NCBI RefSeq assembly: GCF_965218915.1
Contig: NZ_OZ244711.1
Location: 8,529 to 72,528 of the forward strand
Direction of reading: 5' to 3'
Length of the DNA stretch: 64,000 bases
DNA from: Novosphingopyxis sp.
GTDB lineage: Bacteria; Pseudomonadota; Alphaproteobacteria; Sphingomonadales; Sphingomonadaceae
Within the stretch, counting starts at the first letter, position 1, and each line of letters begins with the position of its first letter. Shown one piece after another: positions 40,228 through 59,651 of the stretch. A program made the translations under genes and the position numbers. Under the pieces are notes generated by a model, which was not told the DNA's origin, ran no database searches, and was given only the letters and a program-made list of their open reading frames with translations.

Positions 40228-40524
40228 GCCGACACGGGGTCACCAAGCCCTCCCCTGCCGGTCAGGACACGCCCACGCTGCCTCCTCATGGCCTGATCTG
40301 GCCGCAGGACGGCTGACGCCTCGATCGACTTTGCCGCAATGGCGGCCGGGCAACTTTCTTCCCCTGCGCTGGCGCGCATTCCTCGCGATCCAAGAAAGCC
40401 GCCCGGCCGCCATCCTCCGCTCTGCTTCGGCCCACAAGCGGGTGCGTCGTCGATCGCCTGCGGCCTGCAGATCGCCATCGGAGGCCGCGATGGGCGCGGT
40501 CCCGAGACAACAGGAGAGAGCACC
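40228..40524 (+). repeat. structured intergenic element, copy C (most complete; reference copy)
   Basis: Invariant box 40293-40327, stem 40341-40360 / 40392-40411, second hairpin GCGGCCT/AGGCCGC, and RBS CAGGAGAGAGCACC before ATG 40525. Confidence 0.7.
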
Positions 40525-40836
40525 ATGGCGACCATCGGCACCTTCACCCGCACCAACGGCAGCTTCACCGGCGCGGTCAAGACCCTCAGCATTAACGCCA
40601 AGACCACGATCAAGCCCGCCGACAAGGCCAACGATCGCGCGCCCGACTACCGCATCCTCACGGGGTCTGCCGTGGAGTTCGGGGCCGCCTGGAAAAAGAC
40701 CTCCGGCGAGGGTCGCGAGTATCTCTCGGTCAAGCTCGACGACCCCAGCTTCCCCGCCCCGATCTACGCCACCTTGGTCGAAGCAGACGAAGCCGGCACG
40801 TTCAACCTGATCTGGTCCCGCCGCAACGGCGACTGA
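40525..40836 (+). CDS. DUF736 domain-containing protein
   Basis: 103 aa. [44 protein letters not shown]...[22 protein letters not shown] fits the DUF736 family. Start set at the ATG behind a good RBS. Confidence 0.85.
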   Translation: MATIGTFTRTNGSFTGAVKTLSINAKTTIKPADKANDRAPDYRILTGSAVEFGAAWKKTSGEGREYLSVKLDDPSFPAPIYATLVEADEAGTFNLIWSRRNGD

Positions 40837-44868: not shown

Positions 44869-45129
44869 GGACACGCCCATGCCGCCTCTTGATGGGCTGA
44901 TCTGGCCGCAGGACGGCTGACGCCTCGATCGCCTCTGCCGCAATGGCGGCCGGGCGGCTATTTTCCGCCGGCGCGAGCGCCTTTGCATCGCGAAACAAAA
45001 TAGCCGCCCGGCCGCCATCCTCCGCTGCGCTATGGCCTGCACGCAGGTGCGGCGTCGATCGCCTGCGGCCTGTCGATCGCCATCGAGGCCGCGATAGGCG
45101 TGGTCCCGAGGGACAGACAGGAGAGCACC
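44869..45129 (+). repeat. structured intergenic element, copy D (perfect 20-bp stem)
   Basis: Invariant box 44897-44931. Stem GGCGGCCGGGCGGCTATTTT (44945-44964) / AAAATAGCCGCCCGGCCGCC (44997-45016). RBS CAGGAGAGCACC before ATG 45130. Confidence 0.7.
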
Positions 45130-45444
45130 ATGGCGACTATCGGGACCTTCACCCGCTCGGCCGGCGGCACCTTCACCGGCGCGGTCAAGACCCTCAGCAT
45201 CAACGCCAAGACCACGATCAAGCCGGCCGACAAGGCCAGCGACAAGGCGCCCGACTACCGCGTCTTCGCCGGGTCTAGCGTGGAGTTCGGCGCCGCTTGG
45301 AAGAAGACCTCCGGCGAGGGCCGCGCTTATCTCTCGGTCAAGCTCGACGATCCCAGCTTCCCGGCTCCGATCTATGCCACCCTGGTCGAGGGCGAGGAAA
45401 CCGGCAGCTACAGCTTGATCTGGTCCCGCCGCAACGGGGACTAA
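45130..45444 (+). CDS. DUF736 domain-containing protein (paralog 2)
   Basis: 104 aa. [45 protein letters not shown]... is about 80% identical to the 40525-40836 product by eye. Confidence 0.85.
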
Positions 45445-49886: not shown

Positions 49887-50465
49887 TCAGCGTCCTGCCA
49901 TTCCCAGGATGCTCGCTTGATCGAGCCTGATCCAGGCGGCGCAGATACGTCCCATGCCGTCGGGCGCTGGCTGTATCGTCTCGCCTCGACAGGACGCGGC
50001 GACCTCGCCAGGTCGCACCTGCAAAGTGATGGCGCTCCCGCGCGCACCGAGCCAGTAGCCCCCGCCCAAGGCCGCGAGGATTAGAGCTGCCATCCCTACG
50101 CCCGAGATCAACATGGCGCGGGCCACGGCTCCCCGCGCGAACCGCCATGCCTCAGACTTGACGGCGGCGCTCGCGAGCGCGCCGACCCGTTCAGCCAGCA
50201 CGCGCTCGGCGTCGGGCGAGAGTGGCCGGGCGGCTTCCGCCATTACTCCGGCCACTTCCGCCGTCCATTCGATGAGGCCACGACTCGCGGCAAGCACGGG
50301 TTCGATGGGATCCCCCGGCTTGATTTCTGCCCCACGGACCGCTTCGTCATGCCGGGCAAGCTGCTCGGCTGCTGCCCGTCGGATGCGGTCTGCCGCCGTT
50401 TCGTCCATTGGCGCCGGGCGCGTTACCGCTCTTTTCGTCTCGGCCACGCCGGCTACGGCAGCCAT
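49887..50465 (-). CDS. hypothetical membrane protein (third gene of the StbAB-like operon)
   Basis: Start set at ATG 50465 (MAAVAGVAETKR...). One TM segment (MLISGVGMAALILAALGGGYWLG). Overlaps the upstream ATPase gene end by 13 nt. Confidence 0.45.
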   Translation of the reverse strand: MAAVAGVAETKRAVTRPAPMDETAADRIRRAAAEQLARHDEAVRGAEIKPGDPIEPVLAASRGLIEWTAEVAGVMAEAARPLSPDAERVLAERVGALASAAVKSEAWRFARGAVARAMLISGVGMAALILAALGGGYWLGARGSAITLQVRPGEVAASCRGETIQPAPDGMGRICAAWIRLDQASILGMAGR

Positions 50466-51253
50466 GGCGATACCCTCTCCAGCTCTGCGTGGAGGCGCCG
50501 CCGGAAGGTTGCGACCATTTGTCGGTGCGCCAAACCCAATGGCGAGCTGCGCGCCATTGCCTGCTCGAAGCTCAGCCCCGCATCGTCCACCAAGTTCATG
50601 CACCCGAGCGTGGGCACCACGATCTCGCGGGCGCCTCGTGCGATTGCTGACCGATAGATCGGGTTTCCCCGCACACGCCGGAACACCACTTCCGCCGGGC
50701 GGGTGTCGCCCACGGGACCCGCGTTCAGGGCTAGGATCGTGGCGGCCGGCGTGAACAAGCCGTCGCCCTCCGTGCGCTCGAGCACGGCCAGGTCGCTCAC
50801 GGTCGGCAGAATCAGATGGATTGCGACCGGGTCGATTGCCGCGCGGGCATCGGCCAGCATAGCGACGATCTCGCGCTCGCGAGCGTAGTCTGGGAACACC
50901 AGATCGCCGCCACCCATGTCGAGCACACGCGAGCGGCCGTCGCCTTCCATCTCGGACACCTCAGCGTCGAGCCACGCCTTCACGGTCGTATCGTCGGCAT
51001 AGTCGGGCCGTCGCACGCGCCGGGCTGAGGTTCCTGCTGCGTCGGTTTCGGTGAATAGACTTGCCAAGTAGGCGTCGTTCCGGTCGCCATCGAGGATAAG
51101 CGGGTCGCGACCTTGTTCGCGGGCTCGCTCCACGATGGCCCGGCCGAGCAGGCTTTTGCCGGAGTTCTGTGGCCCGAGCAAGACTAACAGCTTGGAGGAG
51201 ACCGGTTTCGGCTCCAACTCGATGACGTTCTCGACCGTCGCTGTCTTGGGCAT
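50453..51253 (-). CDS. P-loop NTPase (ParA/StbB-like by position)
   Basis: 266 aa. Walker A LLVLLGPQNSGKSLLGRAI and Walker B-like RVLDMGGGD. Second gene leftward from the candidate oriT. Confidence 0.6.
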   Translation of the reverse strand: MPKTATVENVIELEPKPVSSKLLVLLGPQNSGKSLLGRAIVERAREQGRDPLILDGDRNDAYLASLFTETDAAGTSARRVRRPDYADDTTVKAWLDAEVSEMEGDGRSRVLDMGGGDLVFPDYAREREIVAMLADARAAIDPVAIHLILPTVSDLAVLERTEGDGLFTPAATILALNAGPVGDTRPAEVVFRRVRGNPIYRSAIARGAREIVVPTLGCMNLVDDAGLSFEQAMARSSPLGLAHRQMVATFRRRLHAELERVSPWLP

Positions 51254-51265
51254 TGTTCCTTCCTC

Positions 51266-51712
51266 CTACGTCAGGTTGCGCTTCTTGAGCGGCGGCATTC
51301 TCGGCCGATTGTCGGCGAGAGGCGGCAACGCGGGTGGTTCGCCGGGCTGGCGAGCCGGAAGGGGAGGGGAAGGCTGGGCCATGGCCCACACCCCTTGCGG
51401 CATCACACTGCGGCTGGACGTCGGCGAGGGTGGCGCCGCTATTGCCCCAGCCTTTACATCCCGCCGCACACGCCACCACGCATCGCGGACACCGCGAGCG
51501 GTCGGCGGCTTTCCGTCGATGTCGAGAATGCCCTGCTCGCCGAGGAAGGCTGCGAGGATCTGCCAGGCAGGGGCGTTCCTAGTGAACCCGGCAATCAGCT
51601 CGTCATGGTACCGACGGAACCAGAGATACACGGGCGAGCGACGGCCATGACCGCGGCCAGTCGCCTGTGCCAGGACAGCGAGGGCGTTTGCAGCGTTCGG
51701 AGACTTGCGCAT
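51266..51712 (-). CDS. hypothetical basic protein, candidate DNA-binding (StbA-like by position)
   Basis: Start set at in-frame ATG 51712 (MRKSPNAANALAVLAQATGRGHGRRSPVYLWFRRYHDELIAGF...). Pro-rich tail. First gene next to the 9-bp direct repeats. Confidence 0.45.
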   Translation of the reverse strand: MRKSPNAANALAVLAQATGRGHGRRSPVYLWFRRYHDELIAGFTRNAPAWQILAAFLGEQGILDIDGKPPTARGVRDAWWRVRRDVKAGAIAAPPSPTSSRSVMPQGVWAMAQPSPPLPARQPGEPPALPPLADNRPRMPPLKKRNLT

Positions 51713-51724
51713 AGGCCAACGATA

Positions 51725-51836
51725 GGTGTCGGACTTGTGTCGGATCAACTGCCGGACAAGTGTCGGACTAACGTCGCACCAAAGTGGTGGGCAATGGGTT
51801 ATAGACCAAGGCACCCTAGCGGGTGCTTGTTGCGCC
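51725..51836 (-). promoter_or_regulatory. candidate oriT: three phased 9-bp direct repeats plus an IR with a MOBF-like nic motif on the minus strand
   Basis: GTGTCGGAC/T at 51725, 51736 and 51759. IR GCACCC-TAGC-GGGTGC at 51811-51826. The minus strand reads GGGTGCCTTGGTCT/ATAACCCATTG, compared with the R388 nic region GGTGCGTATTGTCT/ATAGCCCAG (from memory). Confidence 0.5.
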
Positions 51837-51863
51837 TGCTCGCGCGCCTTCCTACAGTGAGTC

Positions 51864-52151
51864 ATGATCAATCCCACTGAAGCGCTCAGGGCCGAAGTCG
51901 CCGGGCTGCGAACCGACGTCCAAGCTCTCACGAGCGGCCTGATGCTGATGCTCGAAGTACAGGAGACACACGGCGAACTGCTGCGCGAGCTGGGCGAAGC
52001 ACTGGGACAGGAGCCGGACGGCCCCAGCCCGGTGGCGGAAGCGCTCGAGGCGCTCGCAGCAATTGGCCGAGACCAGACCGCCGCGATTGAACGACTCAGC
52101 CAGCGTATCGTGGGCGCCACCCTTCGCGGCGTCGGGTCGCCGGCGTCGTAG
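51864..52151 (+). CDS. small coiled-coil protein upstream of the relaxase (possible relaxosome accessory factor)
   Basis: 95 aa, helical heptad-like sequence. Ends 13 nt before the relaxase GTG. Confidence 0.4.
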   Translation: MINPTEALRAEVAGLRTDVQALTSGLMLMLEVQETHGELLRELGEALGQEPDGPSPVAEALEALAAIGRDQTAAIERLSQRIVGATLRGVGSPAS

Positions 52152-52163
52152 GCGGTCCGCCGG

Positions 52164-55100
52164 GTGCTGACCTACGCCACCATCGCCGCGGGATCGGGGG
52201 CAGGGGGTAAGGCGCTCGCCGAATACCTGCTGCAGACGCTTCCGGTCGAGCGAGCGGACCTGGCGAGCTACTATCAGCGCGGGATGCGTCCCGACCTGGC
52301 CGGCACGCTGGGCGATGACACCTTTGCGGCCGAGGCGACCCTGCTGGTGAAGCAGGGCACGAGGCTGGACGATCTGCCAGACGCGCTCGACGCTGCCGTG
52401 CAGCGCCGCCATGCCGGGTTCGTAGAGCGCTACCTGGCCGGCGAGCGCGCAATCCCGGAGGGCGAGGCTCTGGCGCGTCTCGCCGAGCACGTGGTGACCT
52501 CGGGCAACCCGGCCGACGAGGCCGAGACGGTTCTCACGCGCTTGCGCGAGGCGGCTTCGGACGCGGCCGAAAGTGATCGCATCGTCCAGGCCTTTCGGGA
52601 TGCCGAGAGCGCCGCGTTCTATCGCCGCGACAAGGTGCTCGAAGCCGTGGAGCGCGGCCTCTACGGGCACAGCACGGCCGAGCCGAGGCGGGACATGCAC
52701 CCGCACTTGGGCGAGATGCTTGGGCTGGACTCGCACCGCGTTCCCACGGCCGACGAGATCGGCCACATCCTCTCCGGGCGCCGCGCGAACGGCGAGGAGA
52801 TCGAGGGCAAGTCGCGACAGAAGGGGACGGTGAGCCTGTCCGATGCGCTCGGACTCGACTCCTCGCGTCCACCGACATGGGACGAGATCAGTCACATCCT
52901 CGACAGGCGCCGGGCGGATGGGACGCCGATCGCCGGGCCGGGCACTGAGACAGCGCGGCATCGCTTTCTGGATCTGCTGGGCGTGAGGGCGGCCGAGCCT
53001 GACCAGAACCAGGTGCGACACCTGATGGCCGGGCGCATGGTGGACGGCAGCGAGCTGGACACCGACGCGTACCGGCGTGGCGTGGAGGCGAGCAAGGCAC
53101 GGATCGCGGCGGTGGACCTGACGTTCTCGGCCGACAAGTCGGTGTCCATCGCCTGGGCGCTCGCGCCGACGGAGGCGGAGCGGAACATGCTCGCCCAGGC
53201 GCACAAGGACGCCGTGGCGAGCACCATGGCCGTGATCGCGGACGAGCTGGGACACGCGCGCCGCGGCAAGGCCGGGAGTGGCGGAACGGAAGCCGGGCAC
53301 ATCACTTGGCTGGGCTTCGACCACTACGCGAGCCGGCCCGTCGTGCCGGTGGCGCGGACGGACGCGCAGGGCAATCCCTACACGGAACTGCTCAGCTTCG
53401 GCGCGGCCGGGGACCCGGCGCTGCACAGCCATATGCTCGTGCCGTCCGTCGTGATGACCGACACGGGCCGGGTCACGTCGCTCGACTTGGACACGATGGC
53501 GGGCAAGACGCACACCTGGGGCGCGTTCTACCAGGCGTTCCTCGCGACGAACCTCAAGCGCCTCGGCGTCGAGGTCGGGTTGGACGAGCGCACGGGCGCG
53601 GCGCGGCTGTCCGCTATCCCCGAGAACGTGCGGGACGCCTACTCCAAGCGCACGAGGGACGGCACGGAGGCGGCGCGCGAATACGCTGCGACCCAGGGCA
53701 AGGACTGGGACAGCCTCTCTGACCGGCAGAAGGTTGGCCTGGTCCACGCCAGCACCCAGGCCCGGCGCCGAGCGAAGGACGCGGCCGGCGGCAACCAAGA
53801 GGATCGCGTGGCCGATTTCGTTGCCTGGGAGCGGCAGGCCAAGAGCATGGGCTACGCGCACAAGAGCGTGCTGGGCGCGACGCCTCCGCCTGCGCCGAGC
53901 CGCGACGATCGGCTCCAAGGTGCCTACCAGACTGCGTTGCGGCTCCTGGACAAGGTGTTCGTCGGCACGGCGAAGGTGGACGGGGAGAAGCTGCGGGAGA
54001 TCGCCGCGCGCGGTCTCATCACGACGTCGATGGAAGATGTCACCGACGTGAAGGCCGTCACCCGCGCCTTCGCTACACGGGGCGTTCGCCAAGATGGGCG
54101 GGATGTCGCTCTGATCTGGGGCGAGGACCCGGCCGTGCGCGGCAAGGCCCGGATCGGCGTCACCACGACGCTGCACGAGGCGCAGGAACAAGAGGTTGTG
54201 GCCGGGTTGCGGGCAGCGGCCGGGGACAGGTCCGCCGCGCTCTCCAAGCGCGCCATAGAGGCCGCCGTGACGCGAAGCGGGCTGACCTTCGACGGCGAGC
54301 ACGGACGGGCGCAGCGGGCGGCAATCGATGCGCTTGGTACGGGCGGACGCTTTGCGGCGTTCATCGGAGCGGCCGGAGCGGGCAAGAGCAGCGTCTTGCG
54401 TCCGCTGGTCGATGCTTGGCGCCAGGACGGCAAGCGCGTGTTCGGGACCGCGCTGGGAAATAACCAGACGGACGCGCTCGAGGACGCCGGCATCAAGGCT
54501 GCGGATCGAGCGGCGCTCGATCCATTTCTCAAGCAAGCGGCGGCAGGCAGATTCGAGCTGGCTCATGACTCGGTGGTGGTGATCGAGGAGGTCGGGCGCG
54601 TCGGCACGCGACAGCTTCGCGAGCTGATGCGGCTGCAAGGCGAGCTCGGGTTCAAGGTTGTCGCGGTCGGCGATCCCGAGCAGCTCCAGAGCATCGAGGC
54701 GGGGCACGTCGTCGGGCTCATGCGCCGCGCCCTGGGCGAGAACGCCATCCCGGAGATCGCCACCACGCTGCGGCAGCGGACGGACGAGGAGAAGCTGACG
54801 ACGAGCTTGTTCCGAGAGGGGCAAGCGGCGGAGGCGATCGAGCGCAAGCGCATGGACGGGACGGCGATCCTCGTCGCCGGTGATCACACGGCGGTGGTCG
54901 AGCGGGTCGCGGCGCTCTGGCGCGAGCGGATCGAGATCGGCGCCGAGGTGACGGTCAGCGCGCCGACGAACGCGGACGCCCGCGCCGTTGCCCTCGCCAT
55001 CCGCGAGCAGCGCCGCGCCATGGGCCAGATCGGTGCCGATCTGGTGAGCGTCGACGCGACCAGCCGGAGTAGGTTCAACGCCGGCGTGGGCGAGGACTAC

Positions 55101-55985
55101 GACATGCGGCTCGCGGCGGGGGATCGCGTTCGGCTCTACGAGCGCGCCACCGCCACCTTCTCGGCAACGGACGGCTCGGGACGCACCACGCACGGCAACA
55201 TCGGCAATAACGGGTCGGTGCTGGAGGTGCGCGGCATCACGCCGGAAGGCCTGGCGCTCCGCAACGTCGCCGGGCGCGAGGGCCTGGTTCGCTGGGAGAC
55301 GCTGCGCGACCAAGAGAGCGGCCGCATCCGGTTGGGCTGGGGAGACGCGCTCACCATCGATGCGGCGCAGGGCAGCACGGTCGGCCAGCACATCCTCGCC
55401 ATGCCGAGCGGCTCGGCCGGCGTGAACGGCTACCAGGGCTACACGGCGGGGAGCCGGCATCGCGATGAGACGCTGATGGTGGTCGGGGATGCAGCGGAAC
55501 GCCGGGAGATTACAGCCCGGCGGCCGCGAGGTGACTTCCGGCCGATCGGCGAGGGAGACGTGTGGGAGAACGTCGCGCAAAACCTCTCGCGTAAGCCGGA
55601 ACGCTCGTCGGCGCTCGCCTTCCTCGATCGCGCGGTCAACGTGCGTCGCGGCACGGTGCGGGCCTTCCAGGGCGAGCTGGAGCGCATGGAGCGGCGGCAG
55701 GCCGAGGGAAAGGCGCCGACAGCAGAGGCCAAGGCACGAGGCCAGGCGAGCGCTGCGAGGGAAACCGTCCGGCGGCATAGGGCGGCAGCGCAGGAAGCGG
55801 TAGCACGCCCGGAAAGATCTGTACGGGCGCGGATGGCGAAGGTGGCGCGGCGGGTAAGGCCGGCCCTGGATCGAGCGCGGAAAGCGGCACGCAAGCTGCG
55901 CGAGGTGGCCGGATGGGCGAACTGGGGGCTTCGTGGCGCTTCGGAGCAGCGACGTCATGAGCGTAACGCGGGACGCCGGCGCTAG
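52164..55985 (+). CDS. MOBF-type conjugative relaxase/helicase (TrwC/TraI-like)
   Basis: 1273 aa with a GTG start. N-terminal Tyr pair (LASYYQRG), His triad AAGDPALHSHMLVPSV, helicase Walker A FIGAAGAGKSSVL, and VVVIEEVGRV / VAVGDPEQLQSIEAG motifs. Confidence 0.9.
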   Translation: MLTYATIAAGSGAGGKALAEYLLQTLPVERADLASYYQRGMRPDLAGTLGDDTFAAEATLLVKQGTRLDDLPDALDAAVQRRHAGFVERYLAGERAIPEGEALARLAEHVVTSGNPADEAETVLTRLREAASDAAESDRIVQAFRDAESAAFYRRDKVLEAVERGLYGHSTAEPRRDMHPHLGEMLGLDSHRVPTADEIGHILSGRRANGEEIEGKSRQKGTVSLSDALGLDSSRPPTWDEISHILDRRRADGTPIAGPGTETARHRFLDLLGVRAAEPDQNQVRHLMAGRMVDGSELDTDAYRRGVEASKARIAAVDLTFSADKSVSIAWALAPTEAERNMLAQAHKDAVASTMAVIADELGHARRGKAGSGGTEAGHITWLGFDHYASRPVVPVARTDAQGNPYTELLSFGAAGDPALHSHMLVPSVVMTDTGRVTSLDLDTMAGKTHTWGAFYQAFLATNLKRLGVEVGLDERTGAARLSAIPENVRDAYSKRTRDGTEAAREYAATQGKDWDSLSDRQKVGLVHASTQARRRAKDAAGGNQEDRVADFVAWERQAKSMGYAHKSVLGATPPPAPSRDDRLQGAYQTALRLLDKVFVGTAKVDGEKLREIAARGLITTSMEDVTDVKAVTRAFATRGVRQDGRDVALIWGEDPAVRGKARIGVTTTLHEAQEQEVVAGLRAAAGDRSAALSKRAIEAAVTRSGLTFDGEHGRAQRAAIDALGTGGRFAAFIGAAGAGKSSVLRPLVDAWRQDGKRVFGTALGNNQTDALEDAGIKAADRAALDPFLKQAAAGRFELAHDSVVVIEEVGRVGTRQLRELMRLQGELGFKVVAVGDPEQLQSIEAGHVVGLMRRALGENAIPEIATTLRQRTDEEKLTTSLFREGQAAEAIERKRMDGTAILVAGDHTAVVERVAALWRERIEIGAEVTVSAPTNADARAVALAIREQRRAMGQIGADLVSVDATSRSRFNAGVGEDYDMRLAAGDRVRLYERATATFSATDGSGRTTHGNIGNNGSVLEVRGITPEGLALRNVAGREGLVRWETLRDQESGRIRLGWGDALTIDAAQGSTVGQHILAMPSGSAGVNGYQGYTAGSRHRDETLMVVGDAAERREITARRPRGDFRPIGEGDVWENVAQNLSRKPERSSALAFLDRAVNVRRGTVRAFQGELERMERRQAEGKAPTAEAKARGQASAARETVRRHRAAAQEAVARPERSVRARMAKVARRVRPALDRARKAARKLREVAGWANWGLRGASEQRRHERNAGRRR

Positions 55986-57788: not shown

Positions 57789-59651
57789 CTATTCGGCCGC
57801 CTCGGCGGGAATCGCCGAGTGGACTGGGCGTCGAACAAATCGATTGTCGCCGGCGATGCTGTTCTCCCACTCGCGGCGAAAATAGAGCGGTACGCCACAG
57901 CGGATCGGGGCGCAGCCGGCGGCTAGGACGAACATCTCGTCGGCGCGCGCCTCGCGGATCTCGTCGGGCTTGATAAGGCTGCGCTTGATTTCGTGACGGT
58001 TCGTGTTCCGCCCGCGCGAGCGCGTGCCCAGCTCGAAGCCCTTGTTCGACGTGCCCCGGTTGTCGCCCTCGCTAGTGGCCTGCACGCCATGTTCGCCGAT
58101 TTCCTTGGACAAGGACTCTTGCGTGCGGCGATCCAGCACTCGCGCATAGCCGCGCCAGGACAGGTTCGGGAACCACAGGTCGCAACCAGCCTTGCCGCGG
58201 CGGCCCCAGACCTCGTCAATTTCGGTCTCGGACAGATGCGGGAGGTGCAACGTGGCGCCGTATTTGCGGCCGGTGTCGCGCAGCAGCTCGAAGGCGACCA
58301 CGCGCCCGATAGTGCCCATCTCGTCCGGGATGATAAGGGTACGGCTGTGATAGTTCCCGTTCGCCTCGATGAAGGCCCAGGCAAAGGCGTCCAGCGCAGC
58401 CCGAACGATACCCGGGGAGAACTTGAGCGCATCAAACCCGACGTGGATGTAGACCGTCGTCGGGCGCTCGGTGATCTCGCGCGGCGACAAATCCGTGCCG
58501 GAAAGGAAGTCGGCGGCCGCGTCGTCCAGCATCCAGCGCGTGAGCTGAGTGGCGGAGAAGTAGGCGCCGCTGAACGTCTCCTCGGCCAGGCCCATGAGCG
58601 TCCTGGCACCGAGCTTGGCGGCCGTGCACGGGCTGATCGCCGCGATCCCGGCGAGGAGATTTTTCATGTCCTTCTCAGCCGTCGTGATGAGATCGCGCAG
58701 GGTGCGCAGGTTGCGGTGGTGGCGGGGCACGCTTTCGTCCCAGAGCATGTGACCGAGCAGCGCGGCCACCATGTTCCGCCCGGCGTCGTCGAAAATGCTG
58801 TCGGCGTCGCGGTCGCGCTCCTCGCCGCACAACGAACCGACGACGGAGAGCACGCGCCTCGTGGCGTTGGGAGATTTGGGGTCGATGCCGCCCAGCAGGT
58901 CAAGGGCATCGCCCCCGAGAGCAATCCGGATTACACGATTGCCCATCGCCTCGCGCGCGCTCTGGGTCAGGTCGGCGATTTCGTCCGACGGGTCGACGAC
59001 GATGGCGGAGCCACGCCAGTGCATCAGGCGCGTGGCGATGGAGGCGGTCTTTCCGCCGCCGCTGCCGGAGACGAAAATCGAGTGCGTCGGCCCCTCGATG
59101 CACGGATCGACCAGGAGCGGCACCTGGCCGCCGGGTCCCCAGGTTGCTTTGTCGCGCGACCTGAACTCGAGCGCGCCAACCTCGGACAGATCCATGCGGA
59201 CGGCCTCGCCGATGACAAGGAAGGGCTCGCCAGACGGGTCGGGCTGGAAGCGGTCCCGGGCCTCGTTCATTGGCAGCCAGTCGGCATGGCCATGATTGTC
59301 AGTGTCGGCCCGCTCAATGGGCTTCACCGGCTTCCGCATGCCGACCGCGAGCAGGCGGCTCCAGCGCAGGGCGCGGAGCCGTGCGAAGATCGCGGCCACG
59401 ATGAGGAGGGCGGCAACGCTCGGCAGGAACGCGGCGGCGATGAGCGCGCCTAGCAGCTTGGGGGCACCGCGCGCGTACGGCAGCGCGTCGTACCAGAGCG
59501 TGAGTTCCCACTCCAGGCGTACCCGGCCAAGGCCATAAGTGTTGCTCAGATAGGCGAACAGGTAGCTCGAGGCCGCGAGCCAGCCGAGCGCGAGCAGCAG
59601 CGGGACGGCGACGACGGCGACGGCCGCTGCAATCAGGCCGCGGCGGCGCAT
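57789..59651 (-). CDS. virD4: type IV coupling protein (VirD4/TraG/TrwB family)
   Basis: 620 aa with two N-terminal TM segments, Walker A FVSGSGGGKTAS and Walker B-like TLIIPDEMG. Confidence 0.9.
   Translation of the reverse strand: MRRRGLIAAAVAVVAVPLLLALGWLAASSYLFAYLSNTYGLGRVRLEWELTLWYDALPYARGAPKLLGALIAAAFLPSVAALLIVAAIFARLRALRWSRLLAVGMRKPVKPIERADTDNHGHADWLPMNEARDRFQPDPSGEPFLVIGEAVRMDLSEVGALEFRSRDKATWGPGGQVPLLVDPCIEGPTHSIFVSGSGGGKTASIATRLMHWRGSAIVVDPSDEIADLTQSAREAMGNRVIRIALGGDALDLLGGIDPKSPNATRRVLSVVGSLCGEERDRDADSIFDDAGRNMVAALLGHMLWDESVPRHHRNLRTLRDLITTAEKDMKNLLAGIAAISPCTAAKLGARTLMGLAEETFSGAYFSATQLTRWMLDDAAADFLSGTDLSPREITERPTTVYIHVGFDALKFSPGIVRAALDAFAWAFIEANGNYHSRTLIIPDEMGTIGRVVAFELLRDTGRKYGATLHLPHLSETEIDEVWGRRGKAGCDLWFPNLSWRGYARVLDRRTQESLSKEIGEHGVQATSEGDNRGTSNKGFELGTRSRGRNTNRHEIKRSLIKPDEIREARADEMFVLAAGCAPIRCGVPLYFRREWENSIAGDNRFVRRPVHSAIPAEAAE

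What the first reader, a model, noticed from the sequence alone, without database searches (positions are those of the whole stretch)
51713..51863. Candidate oriT with a MOBF-like nic motif that predicts minus-strand transfer with the relaxase entering last
The 151-bp divergent spacer between the StbA-like gene (minus strand) and the relaxase operon (plus strand) holds two features.
- Three 9-bp direct repeats GTGTCGGA(C/T) at 51725, 51736 and 51759, spaced 11 and 23 bp (helical phasing).
- A hairpin GCACCC-TAGC-GGGTGC at 51811-51826.

Read on the minus strand, the hairpin is followed by CTTGGTCT/ATAACCCATTG. As I remember it, the R388 (TrwC, MOBF) nic region is GGTGCGTATTGTCT/ATAGCCCAG, with the hairpin arm 8 nt before the nick. 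Here GGTCTATAACCCA matches TGTCTATAGCCCA at 11 of 13 positions. The relaxase at 52164 has the MOBF His triad (HSHMLV).

This places the nick opposite plus-strand positions 51802/51803 on the minus strand. Transfer would then proceed toward lower coordinates: first the stb-like genes, then rep/par, DUF736 and so on, with the relaxase operon last.
Basis: partly seen in the sequence, partly recalled or inferred. Interest (0 to 1): 0.6.

Follow-up and report, generated by a model that had tools for sequence, protein, structure and literature searches.

The report
Plasmid transfer origin, R388-like nick site
The 151-bp gap between the relaxase operon and a divergent three-gene operon is very probably this plasmid's origin of conjugative transfer, built like that of the textbook plasmid R388; it is an ordinary though well-preserved example from a little-studied group of alphaproteobacterial plasmids.

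Summary
The hairpin GCACCC-TAGC-GGGTGC is at 51811-51826. The 9-bp repeats start one base later than reported, and there are four of them (periods 11, 12 and 11 bp).

On the minus strand the site reads hairpin, then CTTGGTCT/ATAACCC. The real R388 sequence is CGCACC-GAAA-GGTGCG-TATTGTCT/ATAGCCC, so the recalled sequence was right. Stem length, loop length, the 8 nt to the nick, the GTCT/purine core and the placement between divergent operons all match.

Comparison gives the strongest support:
- Nine of ten plasmids fetched only by relaxase homology (36-50% identity) carry a hairpin followed by (T/A)TGGTCT/RT, in the same place and on the same strand. Two of the nine use the ATGGTCT variant, and one of those has no clear hairpin. 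The stems differ but still pair.
- Metagenome relatives found through the neighbouring protein show the same arrangement.
- The ATAACCCA flank that resembles R388 is not conserved, so that part of the resemblance carries little weight.

The predicted polarity (minus strand transferred, lower coordinates first, relaxase last) follows directly. It is the usual MOBF arrangement.

"StbA-like" is shown only by position. There is no sequence similarity. The best PDB fold match is the StbA DNA-binding domain, but the match is not significant.

Verdict: a new member of a known kind, of modest interest. The scan has not noted this site on other DNA.

The parts
51811..51826 (-). IR2-like inverted repeat. 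On the minus strand it reads GCACCC (distal arm), GCTA (loop), GGGTGC (proximal arm). It is the predicted relaxase binding hairpin.
   Evidence: It has the same 6-bp stem and 4-nt loop as R388 IR2. In relatives the stems change but still pair: GCATGG/CCATGC, CATGC/GCATG, GCACC/GGTGC. In a fixed register 76.9% of cells pair, against 23-50% when the partner is slid.
51803..51810 (-). The 8-nt stretch between hairpin and nick, CTTGGTCT on the minus strand. Its last four bases, GTCT, equal R388 positions 22-25 (the U-turn).
   Evidence: TTGGTCT is invariant in 12 related sites. The variant ATGGTCT occurs in L009 and L013.
51802..51803 (-). Predicted nic: the phosphodiester bond between T (complement of 51803) and A (complement of 51802) on the minus strand. 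The relaxase would be joined to the 5' A.
   Evidence: Inferred from alignment with the R388 nick between T25 and A26. Position +1 is a purine in every site that has relaxase or stb-like neighbours, as R388 requires.
51796..51802 (-). The 3' flank of the nick, ATAACCC. It would be the first DNA to enter the recipient.
   Evidence: It resembles R388 ATAGCCC but varies among relatives: ATAACCA, ATGACCC, ATGAAGG, ATTCCCA, GTAGAAG.
51726..51768 (-). Array of four 9-bp direct repeats. On the minus strand they read GTCCGACAC, GTCCGGCAG, ATCCGACAC, GTCCGACAC, with periods of 11, 12 and 11 bp. The array ends 14 bp before the start codon of the 148-aa gene. It is the predicted binding site of that protein.
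   Evidence: The same repeats, in five copies, stand at the same place in L022 and L044/L045, whose 148-aa homologues are the closest in the N-terminal domain. Other relatives have different iterated repeats there.
51266..51712 (-). Gene for a 148-aa basic protein (P0002). It is the first gene on the leading side and stands where StbA stands in R388.
   Evidence: It is syntenic in relatives. The N-domain model has pLDDT 82.6, and its best PDB match is the R388 StbA DNA-binding domain 7pc1, with TM 0.49/0.52 and E = 2. There is no sequence similarity.
50453..51253 (-). Gene for a 266-aa P-loop protein, second in the leading operon, standing where StbB stands in R388.
   Evidence: Weak P-loop matches at residues 21-58. 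It is syntenic and homologous in relatives. It has no similarity to R388 StbB.
51864..52151 (+). Gene for a 95-aa protein (P0003) directly upstream of the relaxase, standing where TrwA stands in R388.
   Evidence: Searches show it conserved before the relaxase in relatives. It has no similarity to TrwA and no family match.
52164..55985 (+). MOBF relaxase-helicase of 1273 aa.
   Evidence: Pfam TrwC 137.5 bits and AAA_30 110.9 bits. NCBIfam MobF 148.8 bits against a cut-off of 100. It is 30% identical to TrwC residues 43-285. The nearest solved structures are TrwC and TraI of pCU1/pKM101.
57789..59651 (-). Type IV coupling protein (VirD4/TrwB type). It lies outside the relaxase operon.
   Evidence: Pfam T4SS-DNA_transf 132.2 bits and TrwB_AAD_bind.

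Best explanation
The spacer 51713-51863 is the origin of transfer (oriT) of an 88-kb conjugative plasmid contig. It works as the R388 oriT does.

**Proposed steps**
1. The MOBF relaxase encoded at 52164 binds the proximal arm of the inverted repeat (GGGTGC on the minus strand) and the 8 single-stranded bases that follow it (CTTGGTCT).
2. It bends the last four bases, GTCT, into the active site and cuts the minus strand between T and A, opposite 51803/51802.
3. It stays joined to the 5' A through a tyrosine of the conserved YY pair.
4. It is exported through the coupling protein and T4SS, drawing the minus strand 5' to 3' into the recipient.

**Order of entry**
Lower coordinates enter first: the repeat array, the three-gene stb-like operon, the rep/par genes and the DUF736 genes. 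The relaxase operon and the T4SS genes enter last.

**The repeats**
The four 11-bp-phased repeats next to the nick are most likely the binding array of the 148-aa protein encoded beside them. By analogy with StbA and its stbDR repeats, it would regulate its own operon and couple plasmid maintenance to transfer.

**Shown and inferred**
- Shown: the sequence features, their geometry, their conservation, and the relaxase family.
- Inferred: binding, cleavage, the exact nick position, and the function of the repeats.
For: **Match to R388**
- R388 has a 6-bp stem, a 4-nt loop, 8 nt and then GTCT/A. The window has the same layout and the same core.
- The numbering was checked against the published specificity map: loop at positions 8-11, proximal arm at 12-16, T23, and a purine required at 26.
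- Placement and polarity are the same. In R388 the nicked strand runs 3' towards stbA, whose operon diverges from the MOB operon and enters first.

**Cognate enzyme**
- An adjacent relaxase passes the curated MobF and TrwC thresholds.
- It keeps the YY pair and the His residues.
- Its nearest solved relatives are TrwC and TraI of pCU1/pKM101.

**Conservation in relatives found by protein homology only**
- Nine of ten PLSDB plasmids carry (T/A)TGGTCT/RT at the same place and on the same strand. Seven have TTGGTCT behind a hairpin of 4-6 bp. L013 has ATGGTCT behind a 5-bp hairpin. In L009 no clear hairpin was found.
- Metagenome contigs found through the 148-aa protein carry it too.
- Eleven of 13 aligned sites have stems of at least 5 bp, against a null probability of 0.0095 per site.
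- Skermanella and Acetobacter have different stems that still pair.

**Specific association**
- Of 15 metagenome loci holding the hairpin-heptamer pattern, 10 have the relaxase and/or the stb-like genes in the expected orientation.
- All 10 have a purine at +1. The 5 loci without such neighbours have C or T there.

**Local context**
- GC content dips to 56-61% in the spacer, against 66-72% in the flanks.
- Both DUF736 genes lie on the + strand, so the predicted transferred strand is their template, as for ardC and ssb in R388.

**Repeats**
- Loci whose 148-aa homologue is closest to the window's in the N-terminal domain (L022, L044) carry the same GTCCGACAC array.
- More distant relatives carry other iterated repeats at the same place.
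Against: - No experiment exists: nicking, the strand cut and mobilisation are all untested.
- The exact nick position rests on alignment to a relaxase that is only 30% identical.
- In three relatives (Acetobacter senegalensis, A. aceti and Methylobacterium oryzae) the stem ends 9 nt, not 8 nt, from the inferred nick. The distance rule is therefore not strict.
- One relative (L014) shows no such site.
- The single-strand fold of the 46-nt site is only modestly better than shuffles (z = -1.83).
- The proximal arm and positions 17-21 differ from R388 at 7 of 10 positions. This is a cognate-specific site, not an R388-compatible one.
- The role proposed for the repeats rests on analogy. The 148-aa protein shows no significant similarity to StbA in sequence or fold statistics.
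Confidence: 0.85

Rival explanations
1. The conserved hairpin and heptamer are transcription signals for the divergent operons (an operator hairpin plus a -35-like CTTGGT box). The real nick site lies elsewhere.
For: - The spacer must hold both promoters. The hairpin ends only 37 nt before the start codon of the 95-aa gene.
- CTTGGT loosely resembles a -35 box.
- oriT regions and promoters often overlap.
Against: - No sigma-70-like promoter was found in 51600-51950.
- In relatives the heptamer lies from about 55 to about 500 bp ahead of the first leading gene. A -35 box would not tolerate that range.
- The GTCT/purine core, the fixed hairpin-to-core distance and the strand all match the R388 nic.
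- Sites that lack relaxase neighbours also lack the purine at +1.
Confidence: 0.06
2. The region is the oriT, but the cut falls at another bond of the conserved heptamer, or a few bases away, rather than exactly after GTCT.
For: - The relaxase is only 30% identical to TrwC.
- It carries a large insertion between the Tyr motif and motif II.
- The stem-to-heptamer distance varies by 1 nt among relatives.
- MOBF relaxases such as F TraI cut in a different sequence context (own knowledge).
Against: - GTCT followed by a purine is invariant across all sites with the gene module, and is identical to R388 positions 22-26.
- Conservation stops abruptly after +2. That is expected if the nick lies there.
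Confidence: 0.08
3. The resemblance to R388 is coincidental and the spacer has no transfer function.
For: - The site is short.
- Its 3' flank similarity to R388 is not conserved.
- About 0.4% of shuffled spacers give a comparable arrangement.
Against: - Nine of ten relaxase-homologous plasmids, and many metagenome relatives, carry the motif at the same place and on the same strand.
- Among the 13 aligned sites, 12 have a hairpin of at least 4 bp; the thirteenth, L006, was mis-anchored there and has a 6-bp stem.
- The 16-mer is absent from 400 other genomes of the class.
Confidence: 0.01

Closest known systems
oriT of IncW plasmid R388: the IR2-nic site cut by TrwC, MOBF11
   Same: - 6-bp stem, 4-nt loop, and 8 nt from the stem to the nick.
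- The U-turn core GTCT and a purine at +1.
- Placement between a MOB operon and a divergent three-gene leading operon.
- The nicked strand runs 3' towards the leading operon.
- An array of 9-bp repeats with an 11-bp period next to the first leading gene.
- The relaxase is a TrwC-family relaxase-helicase.

   Different: - The proximal arm and positions 17-21 differ (GGGTGCCTTG against GGTGCGTATT), so cross-recognition by TrwC is unlikely.
- The spacer is 151 bp, against about 450 bp in R388.
- There are four repeats instead of two sets of five, and they lie 34 nt from the nick.
- There is no trwB between the small gene and the relaxase; the coupling protein sits with the T4SS genes.
- The accessory and stb-like proteins show no sequence similarity to TrwA, StbA or StbB.
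- The relaxase has an N-terminal insertion of about 230 aa.
StbA and stbDR of R388, with the related TraK of RP4: an HTH protein binding iterated repeats between nic and its own gene
   Same: - A small basic protein encoded first on the leading side.
- 9-bp direct repeats separated by 2-3 nt, directly upstream of its gene.
- A predicted all-helical N-terminal domain whose best PDB match is the StbA DNA-binding domain 7pc1.
- The protein is followed by a P-loop protein and then a third small gene.

   Different: - No detectable sequence homology: BLASTP finds none, and hhalign gives 1% probability.
- The fold match is not significant (E = 2, TM about 0.5).
- The P-loop partner is unrelated to StbB in sequence.
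- DNA binding is untested.
Uncharacterised MobF plasmids of Acetobacteraceae, Azospirillaceae and Methylobacteriaceae, for example Lichenicola cladoniae unnamed5, Roseomonas mucosa pTT14-5 and Skermanella rosea pSR-4
   Same: - Homologous relaxases, 36-50% identical in the N-terminal 620 aa.
- A homologous small upstream gene, a homologous 148-aa protein and a homologous P-loop protein in several of them.
- The same hairpin followed by (T/A)TGGTCT/RT, on the same strand.

   Different: - Most have G rather than A at +1.
- Stems, loops and iterated repeats differ.
- None has an experimentally defined oriT as far as the literature searches showed.

Membership tests
MOBF (TrwC-type) oriT / nic site | A cognate MOBF relaxase is encoded next to the site. 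| tested here: met
   Pfam TrwC 137.5 bits (cut-off 25). NCBIfam MobF 148.8 bits (cut-off 100). AAA_30 helicase domain present. HSH of the His triad and an invariant YY pair present.
MOBF (TrwC-type) oriT / nic site | An inverted repeat lies 5' of nic on the nicked strand, with the proximal arm about 8 nt from the cut. | tested here: met
   GCACCC-GCTA-GGGTGC followed by 8 nt. The register is identical to R388 IR2.
MOBF (TrwC-type) oriT / nic site | R388-type cleavage core: GTCT at positions 22-25 and a purine at position 26. | tested here: met
   GTCT/A in the window. GTCT/R in all related sites that have the gene module.
MOBF (TrwC-type) oriT / nic site | Identity with the R388 recognition bases 12-21, which TrwC of R388 itself needs. 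| tested here: not met
   Only 3 of 10 positions agree (GGGTGCCTTG against GGTGCGTATT). The site belongs to the kind but is not an R388-specific substrate.
MOBF (TrwC-type) oriT / nic site | [quoted passage not shown] | tested here: met
   The DUF736 genes on the leading side use the predicted transferred strand as template.
MOBF (TrwC-type) oriT / nic site | The site is conserved beside homologous relaxases. | tested here: met
   Nine of ten PLSDB relatives, plus metagenome relatives. Stems change but still pair.
MOBF (TrwC-type) oriT / nic site | Strand-specific nicking by the relaxase, and mobilisation in cis. | not testable with these tools
   This needs nicking and mating assays.
StbA / stbDR system of R388 | Iterated 9-bp direct repeats with an 11-bp period upstream of the first leading gene. 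| tested here: met
   Four repeats at 51726-51768 with periods of 11, 12 and 11 bp. Five repeats in L022 and L044. R388 has two sets of five.
StbA / stbDR system of R388 | Sequence homology of the protein to StbA. | tested here: not met
   BLASTP finds no hit. hhalign of family against family gives 1% probability and E = 0.056. There is no Pfam or NCBIfam match.
StbA / stbDR system of R388 | An N-terminal HTH domain with the StbA fold (PDB 7pc1). | tested here: inconclusive
   The domain model has pLDDT 82.6. 7pc1 is the top hit among 350,542 chains, but with E = 2, TM 0.49/0.52 and rmsd 4.3 A.
StbA / stbDR system of R388 | The second gene encodes a StbB-type Walker ATPase. | tested here: not met
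   A P-loop protein is present, but it has no similarity to StbB.

The most novel reading that the evidence does not exclude
The 148-aa protein family, together with its phased repeats, is a very distant or convergent counterpart of StbA/TraK. It is paired with an unrelated P-loop protein. On this reading, a clade of alphaproteobacterial MOBF plasmids rebuilt the R388-type switch between plasmid maintenance and transfer at oriT from different parts. The repeat arrays would co-evolve with the protein's N-terminal domain.
Probability: 0.4. Interest if true: 0.45.

Novelty: new member of a known kind. Interest (0 to 1): 0.3.

Why it matters
- It gives a testable oriT and nick consensus, a hairpin followed by (T/A)TGGTCT/RT, for MobF plasmids of Acetobacteraceae-like and other alphaproteobacteria. 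No oriT of this clade appears to have been defined experimentally.
- It shows that the GTCT/purine cleavage core and the hairpin geometry of R388 persist at 30% relaxase identity, while the recognition bases have changed. That helps oriT prediction.
- It fixes the transferred strand and the leading side of this plasmid. Other findings on the same window need this, namely the candidate single-strand promoters in front of the DUF736 genes.

Tried and rejected
- A single-protein related-loci scan of genome contigs returned only an irrelevant Planctomycetales hit.
- A search of 300 genomes of the window's order with the relaxase N-domain at E <= 1e-20 found nothing beyond the window's own genome. 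Relatives were reached through PLSDB by tblastn instead.
- An exact search for TCTATA in relatives found nothing. This showed that the R388-like 3' flank is not the conserved part.
- A literature search for the heptamer was uninformative, because the term "orit" matched inside unrelated words.
- The paper on the Burkholderia Ptw plasmid gives no comparable nic sequence.
- The whole-protein model of the 148-aa protein was weak (pLDDT 66) and its fold search was noisy. The domain-only model was better, but its fold search was still not significant.
- The protein-atlas lead to TraK/DUF5338 scored 0.81, which is below a usable level, and Pfam scans did not confirm it.
- Hairpin-plus-TTGGTCT sites elsewhere in the genome number 15, close to the chance expectation of about 11. 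None has the GGGTGC arm or lies before a relaxase gene.

Full report
**Setting**

The window is bases 8529-72528 of an 87.8-kb contig (C4, 66% GC). The assembly has five contigs and 3.5 Mb.

The contig carries the following:
- a RepA_C replication gene with ParA and an RHH gene, and two DUF736 genes;
- a VirD4-type coupling protein;
- a 1273-aa relaxase-helicase at 52164-55985.

The relaxase passes the curated thresholds for Pfam TrwC and NCBIfam MobF. C4 therefore looks like a conjugative plasmid. The genome holds three further TrwC-family relaxases on other contigs.

**Observation**

- The hairpin GCACCC-TAGC-GGGTGC is at 51811-51826.
- The repeats start at 51726, 51737 and 51760, one base later than reported.
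- A fourth, degenerate copy (CTGCCGGAC, 51749-51757) fills the 23-bp gap, giving periods of 11, 12 and 11 bp.
- The minus strand reads GCACCC-GCTA-GGGTGC-CTTGGTCT-ATAACCC.

I fetched R388 itself (NC_028464). Its oriT reads cgcacc-gaaa-ggtgcg-tattgtct-atagccc, so the recalled sequence was accurate. This numbering fits the published map: loop at 8-11, proximal arm at 12-16, T23 flipped out, the nick after T25, and a purine required at 26 (PMC4176350).

The two sites share a 6-bp stem, a 4-nt loop, 8 nt from the stem to the nick, and GTCT/A. Only 0.4% of shuffled spacers give any comparable arrangement.

**Placement and polarity**

In R388 the site lies between trwA and the divergent stbA. The nicked strand runs 3' towards stbA, and the stb genes enter the recipient first (PMC3098194).

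The window has the same topology.
- The relaxase operon lies on one side and a divergent three-gene operon on the other.
- The hairpin-to-nick direction points to the divergent operon.
- The minus strand would therefore be transferred 5' to 3' from 51802 downwards, and the relaxase operon would enter last.

This is the ordinary MOBF layout. As a consistency check, both DUF736 genes are on the + strand, so the predicted transferred strand is their template. The same holds for the ardC-ssb block of R388.

**Comparative evidence**

This is the strongest support.

Plasmids found by relaxase homology:
- tblastn of the relaxase N-domain against PLSDB found 93 plasmids, mostly from Acetobacteraceae, Skermanella and Methylobacterium.
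- I fetched ten of them without reference to their DNA motifs.
- Seven carry TTGGTCT on the strand reading away from the relaxase, 1-2 nt after a hairpin.
- Two more carry the variant ATGGTCT in the right spacer: L013 after a 5-bp hairpin, and L009 after a GGTGC arm for which I found no partner arm.
- One has no such site.

Hairpin conservation:
- The stems differ but still pair: GCATGG/CCATGC in Skermanella, CATGC/GCATG in Acetobacter, GCACC/GGTGC in Lichenicola.
- Eleven of 13 aligned sites have stems of at least 5 bp, where shuffles give 0.95% per site (L006 was mis-anchored there, and its 6-bp stem is shown).
- In one fixed register 76.9% of cells pair, against 23-50% when the partner is slid. 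Three pairs show double changes.

Metagenome relatives found through the 148-aa protein:
- These contigs carry the identical hairpin and heptamer.

Pattern scan of metagenomes:
- A scan for the hairpin-heptamer pattern returned 15 loci.
- Ten have the relaxase upstream on the opposite strand and/or the stb-like genes downstream on the same strand. All ten have a purine at +1.
- The five loci without such neighbours have C or T at +1.

**What is not conserved**

Relatives read ATAACCA, ATGACCC, ATTCCCA and GTAGAAG. L034, whose relaxase is 83% identical, reads ATGAAGG. This agrees with R388, where positions 27-32 accept any base.

Conversely, the proximal arm and positions 17-21 differ from R388. 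Those are the bases TrwC reads specifically. The site is thus of the R388 kind, but specific to its own relaxase.

**The repeats and the "StbA-like" gene**

The three genes to the left encode proteins of 148 aa and 266 aa (a P-loop protein), followed by a third gene. They are syntenic and homologous in several relatives.

Evidence on homology to the R388 proteins:
- None of the three shows sequence similarity to StbA or StbB, and the 95-aa protein shows none to TrwA.
- No family model matches.
- The N-terminal domain of the 148-aa protein, about 75 residues, is highly conserved and is modelled as four helices at pLDDT 82.6.
- Its top PDB match is the DNA-binding domain of R388 StbA (7pc1), with TM 0.49/0.52 but E = 2.
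- A family-to-family profile comparison aligns the shared pattern G-x8-R-x2-[LW][YW]R[YV]R[KR], but at only 1% probability.

I therefore treat "StbA-like" as a positional analogy with a suggestive but unproven fold resemblance.

Evidence that the protein binds the repeats:
- The loci whose protein is closest to the window's in the N-terminal domain (L022/L033 at 71%; L044 at 64% over the whole protein) carry the same GTCCGACAC array, in five copies at an 11-bp period. L044 even has the same degenerate second copy.
- More distant relatives carry other iterated repeats at the same place, for example about nine AGAGGAYACG units in Acetobacter and GGGGACGC units in Roseomonas.
- This pattern fits a protein-specific binding array, as with StbA and its stbDR repeats, where dimers bind pairs of consecutive repeats.

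**Rivals**

- A purely transcriptional role for the hairpin and heptamer is unlikely. The distance to the first leading gene ranges from about 55 to about 500 bp among relatives, and no promoter-like site was found.
- A nick at a neighbouring bond cannot be excluded without mapping.
- Chance is excluded by the conservation.

**Verdict**

This is a new member of a known kind: a MOBF oriT of R388 architecture in a little-studied alphaproteobacterial plasmid clade.

Its value is practical.
- It gives a nick consensus for that clade.
- It fixes the transferred strand for this plasmid. That supports the orientation assumed by earlier notes on candidate single-strand promoters at about 40.3 kb.

Noticed in passing
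window 52164-53100 (relaxase residues 1-310): Between the conserved YY motif (Y36, Y37) and relaxase motif II lies an insertion of about 230 aa. It includes three tandem copies of a module of about 45 aa (LGLD..RxPT..E...L.GRRA.G..I). TrwC, Roseomonas mucosa MobF and Methylobacterium oryzae MobF have one copy. The Acetobacter, Skermanella and Lichenicola MobF proteins also have three.
   Followed up: partly
L022 / L033 (metagenome contig Ga0318562_10011064), 1330-1860: An orphan copy of the same oriT: the hairpin, TTGGTCT/AT and five GTCCGACAC repeats, with a truncated 122-aa homologue of the 148-aa protein. The contig carries toxin-antitoxin genes and RepA_C but no relaxase. It may be a small plasmid mobilised in trans by this relaxase family. 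A second GCACCC-GTA-GGGTGC hairpin lies 30 nt upstream.
   Followed up: partly
L016 / L017 (metagenome contig ctg250939), 2032-3003: An IS element (an rve-family transposase gene) ends about 50 nt before the nic hairpin and stands where the relaxase operon would be. This oriT copy has lost its relaxase side.
   Followed up: no
G000 contigs C1 (about 926.6 kb and 1093.8 kb) and C3 (about 5.4 kb): The genome has three more TrwC-family relaxases, which match the Pfam model better (263-316 bits). None has the hairpin-TTGGTCT site of C4 before it, so the genome probably holds several independent MOBF elements, each with its own oriT.
   Followed up: partly
window 40339-40836 and 45100-45444: Two DUF736 genes, both on the + strand. 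They are transcribed towards oriT, with the predicted transferred strand as template. This fits the earlier notes on a hairpin element in front of the first of them.
   Followed up: partly
L031, L036, L038, L040, L041 (metagenome contigs): The 24-nt hairpin-heptamer pattern also occurs without detectable relaxase or stb-like neighbours. In all five cases a pyrimidine follows at +1. Whether these are decayed sites, sites of other elements, or chance was not examined.
   Followed up: no
L006 (Skermanella rosea pSR-4) 1990-2034: The hairpin itself contains a second TGGTCT (GCATGGTCTACCATGC), directly before the conserved TTGGTCT.
   Followed up: no
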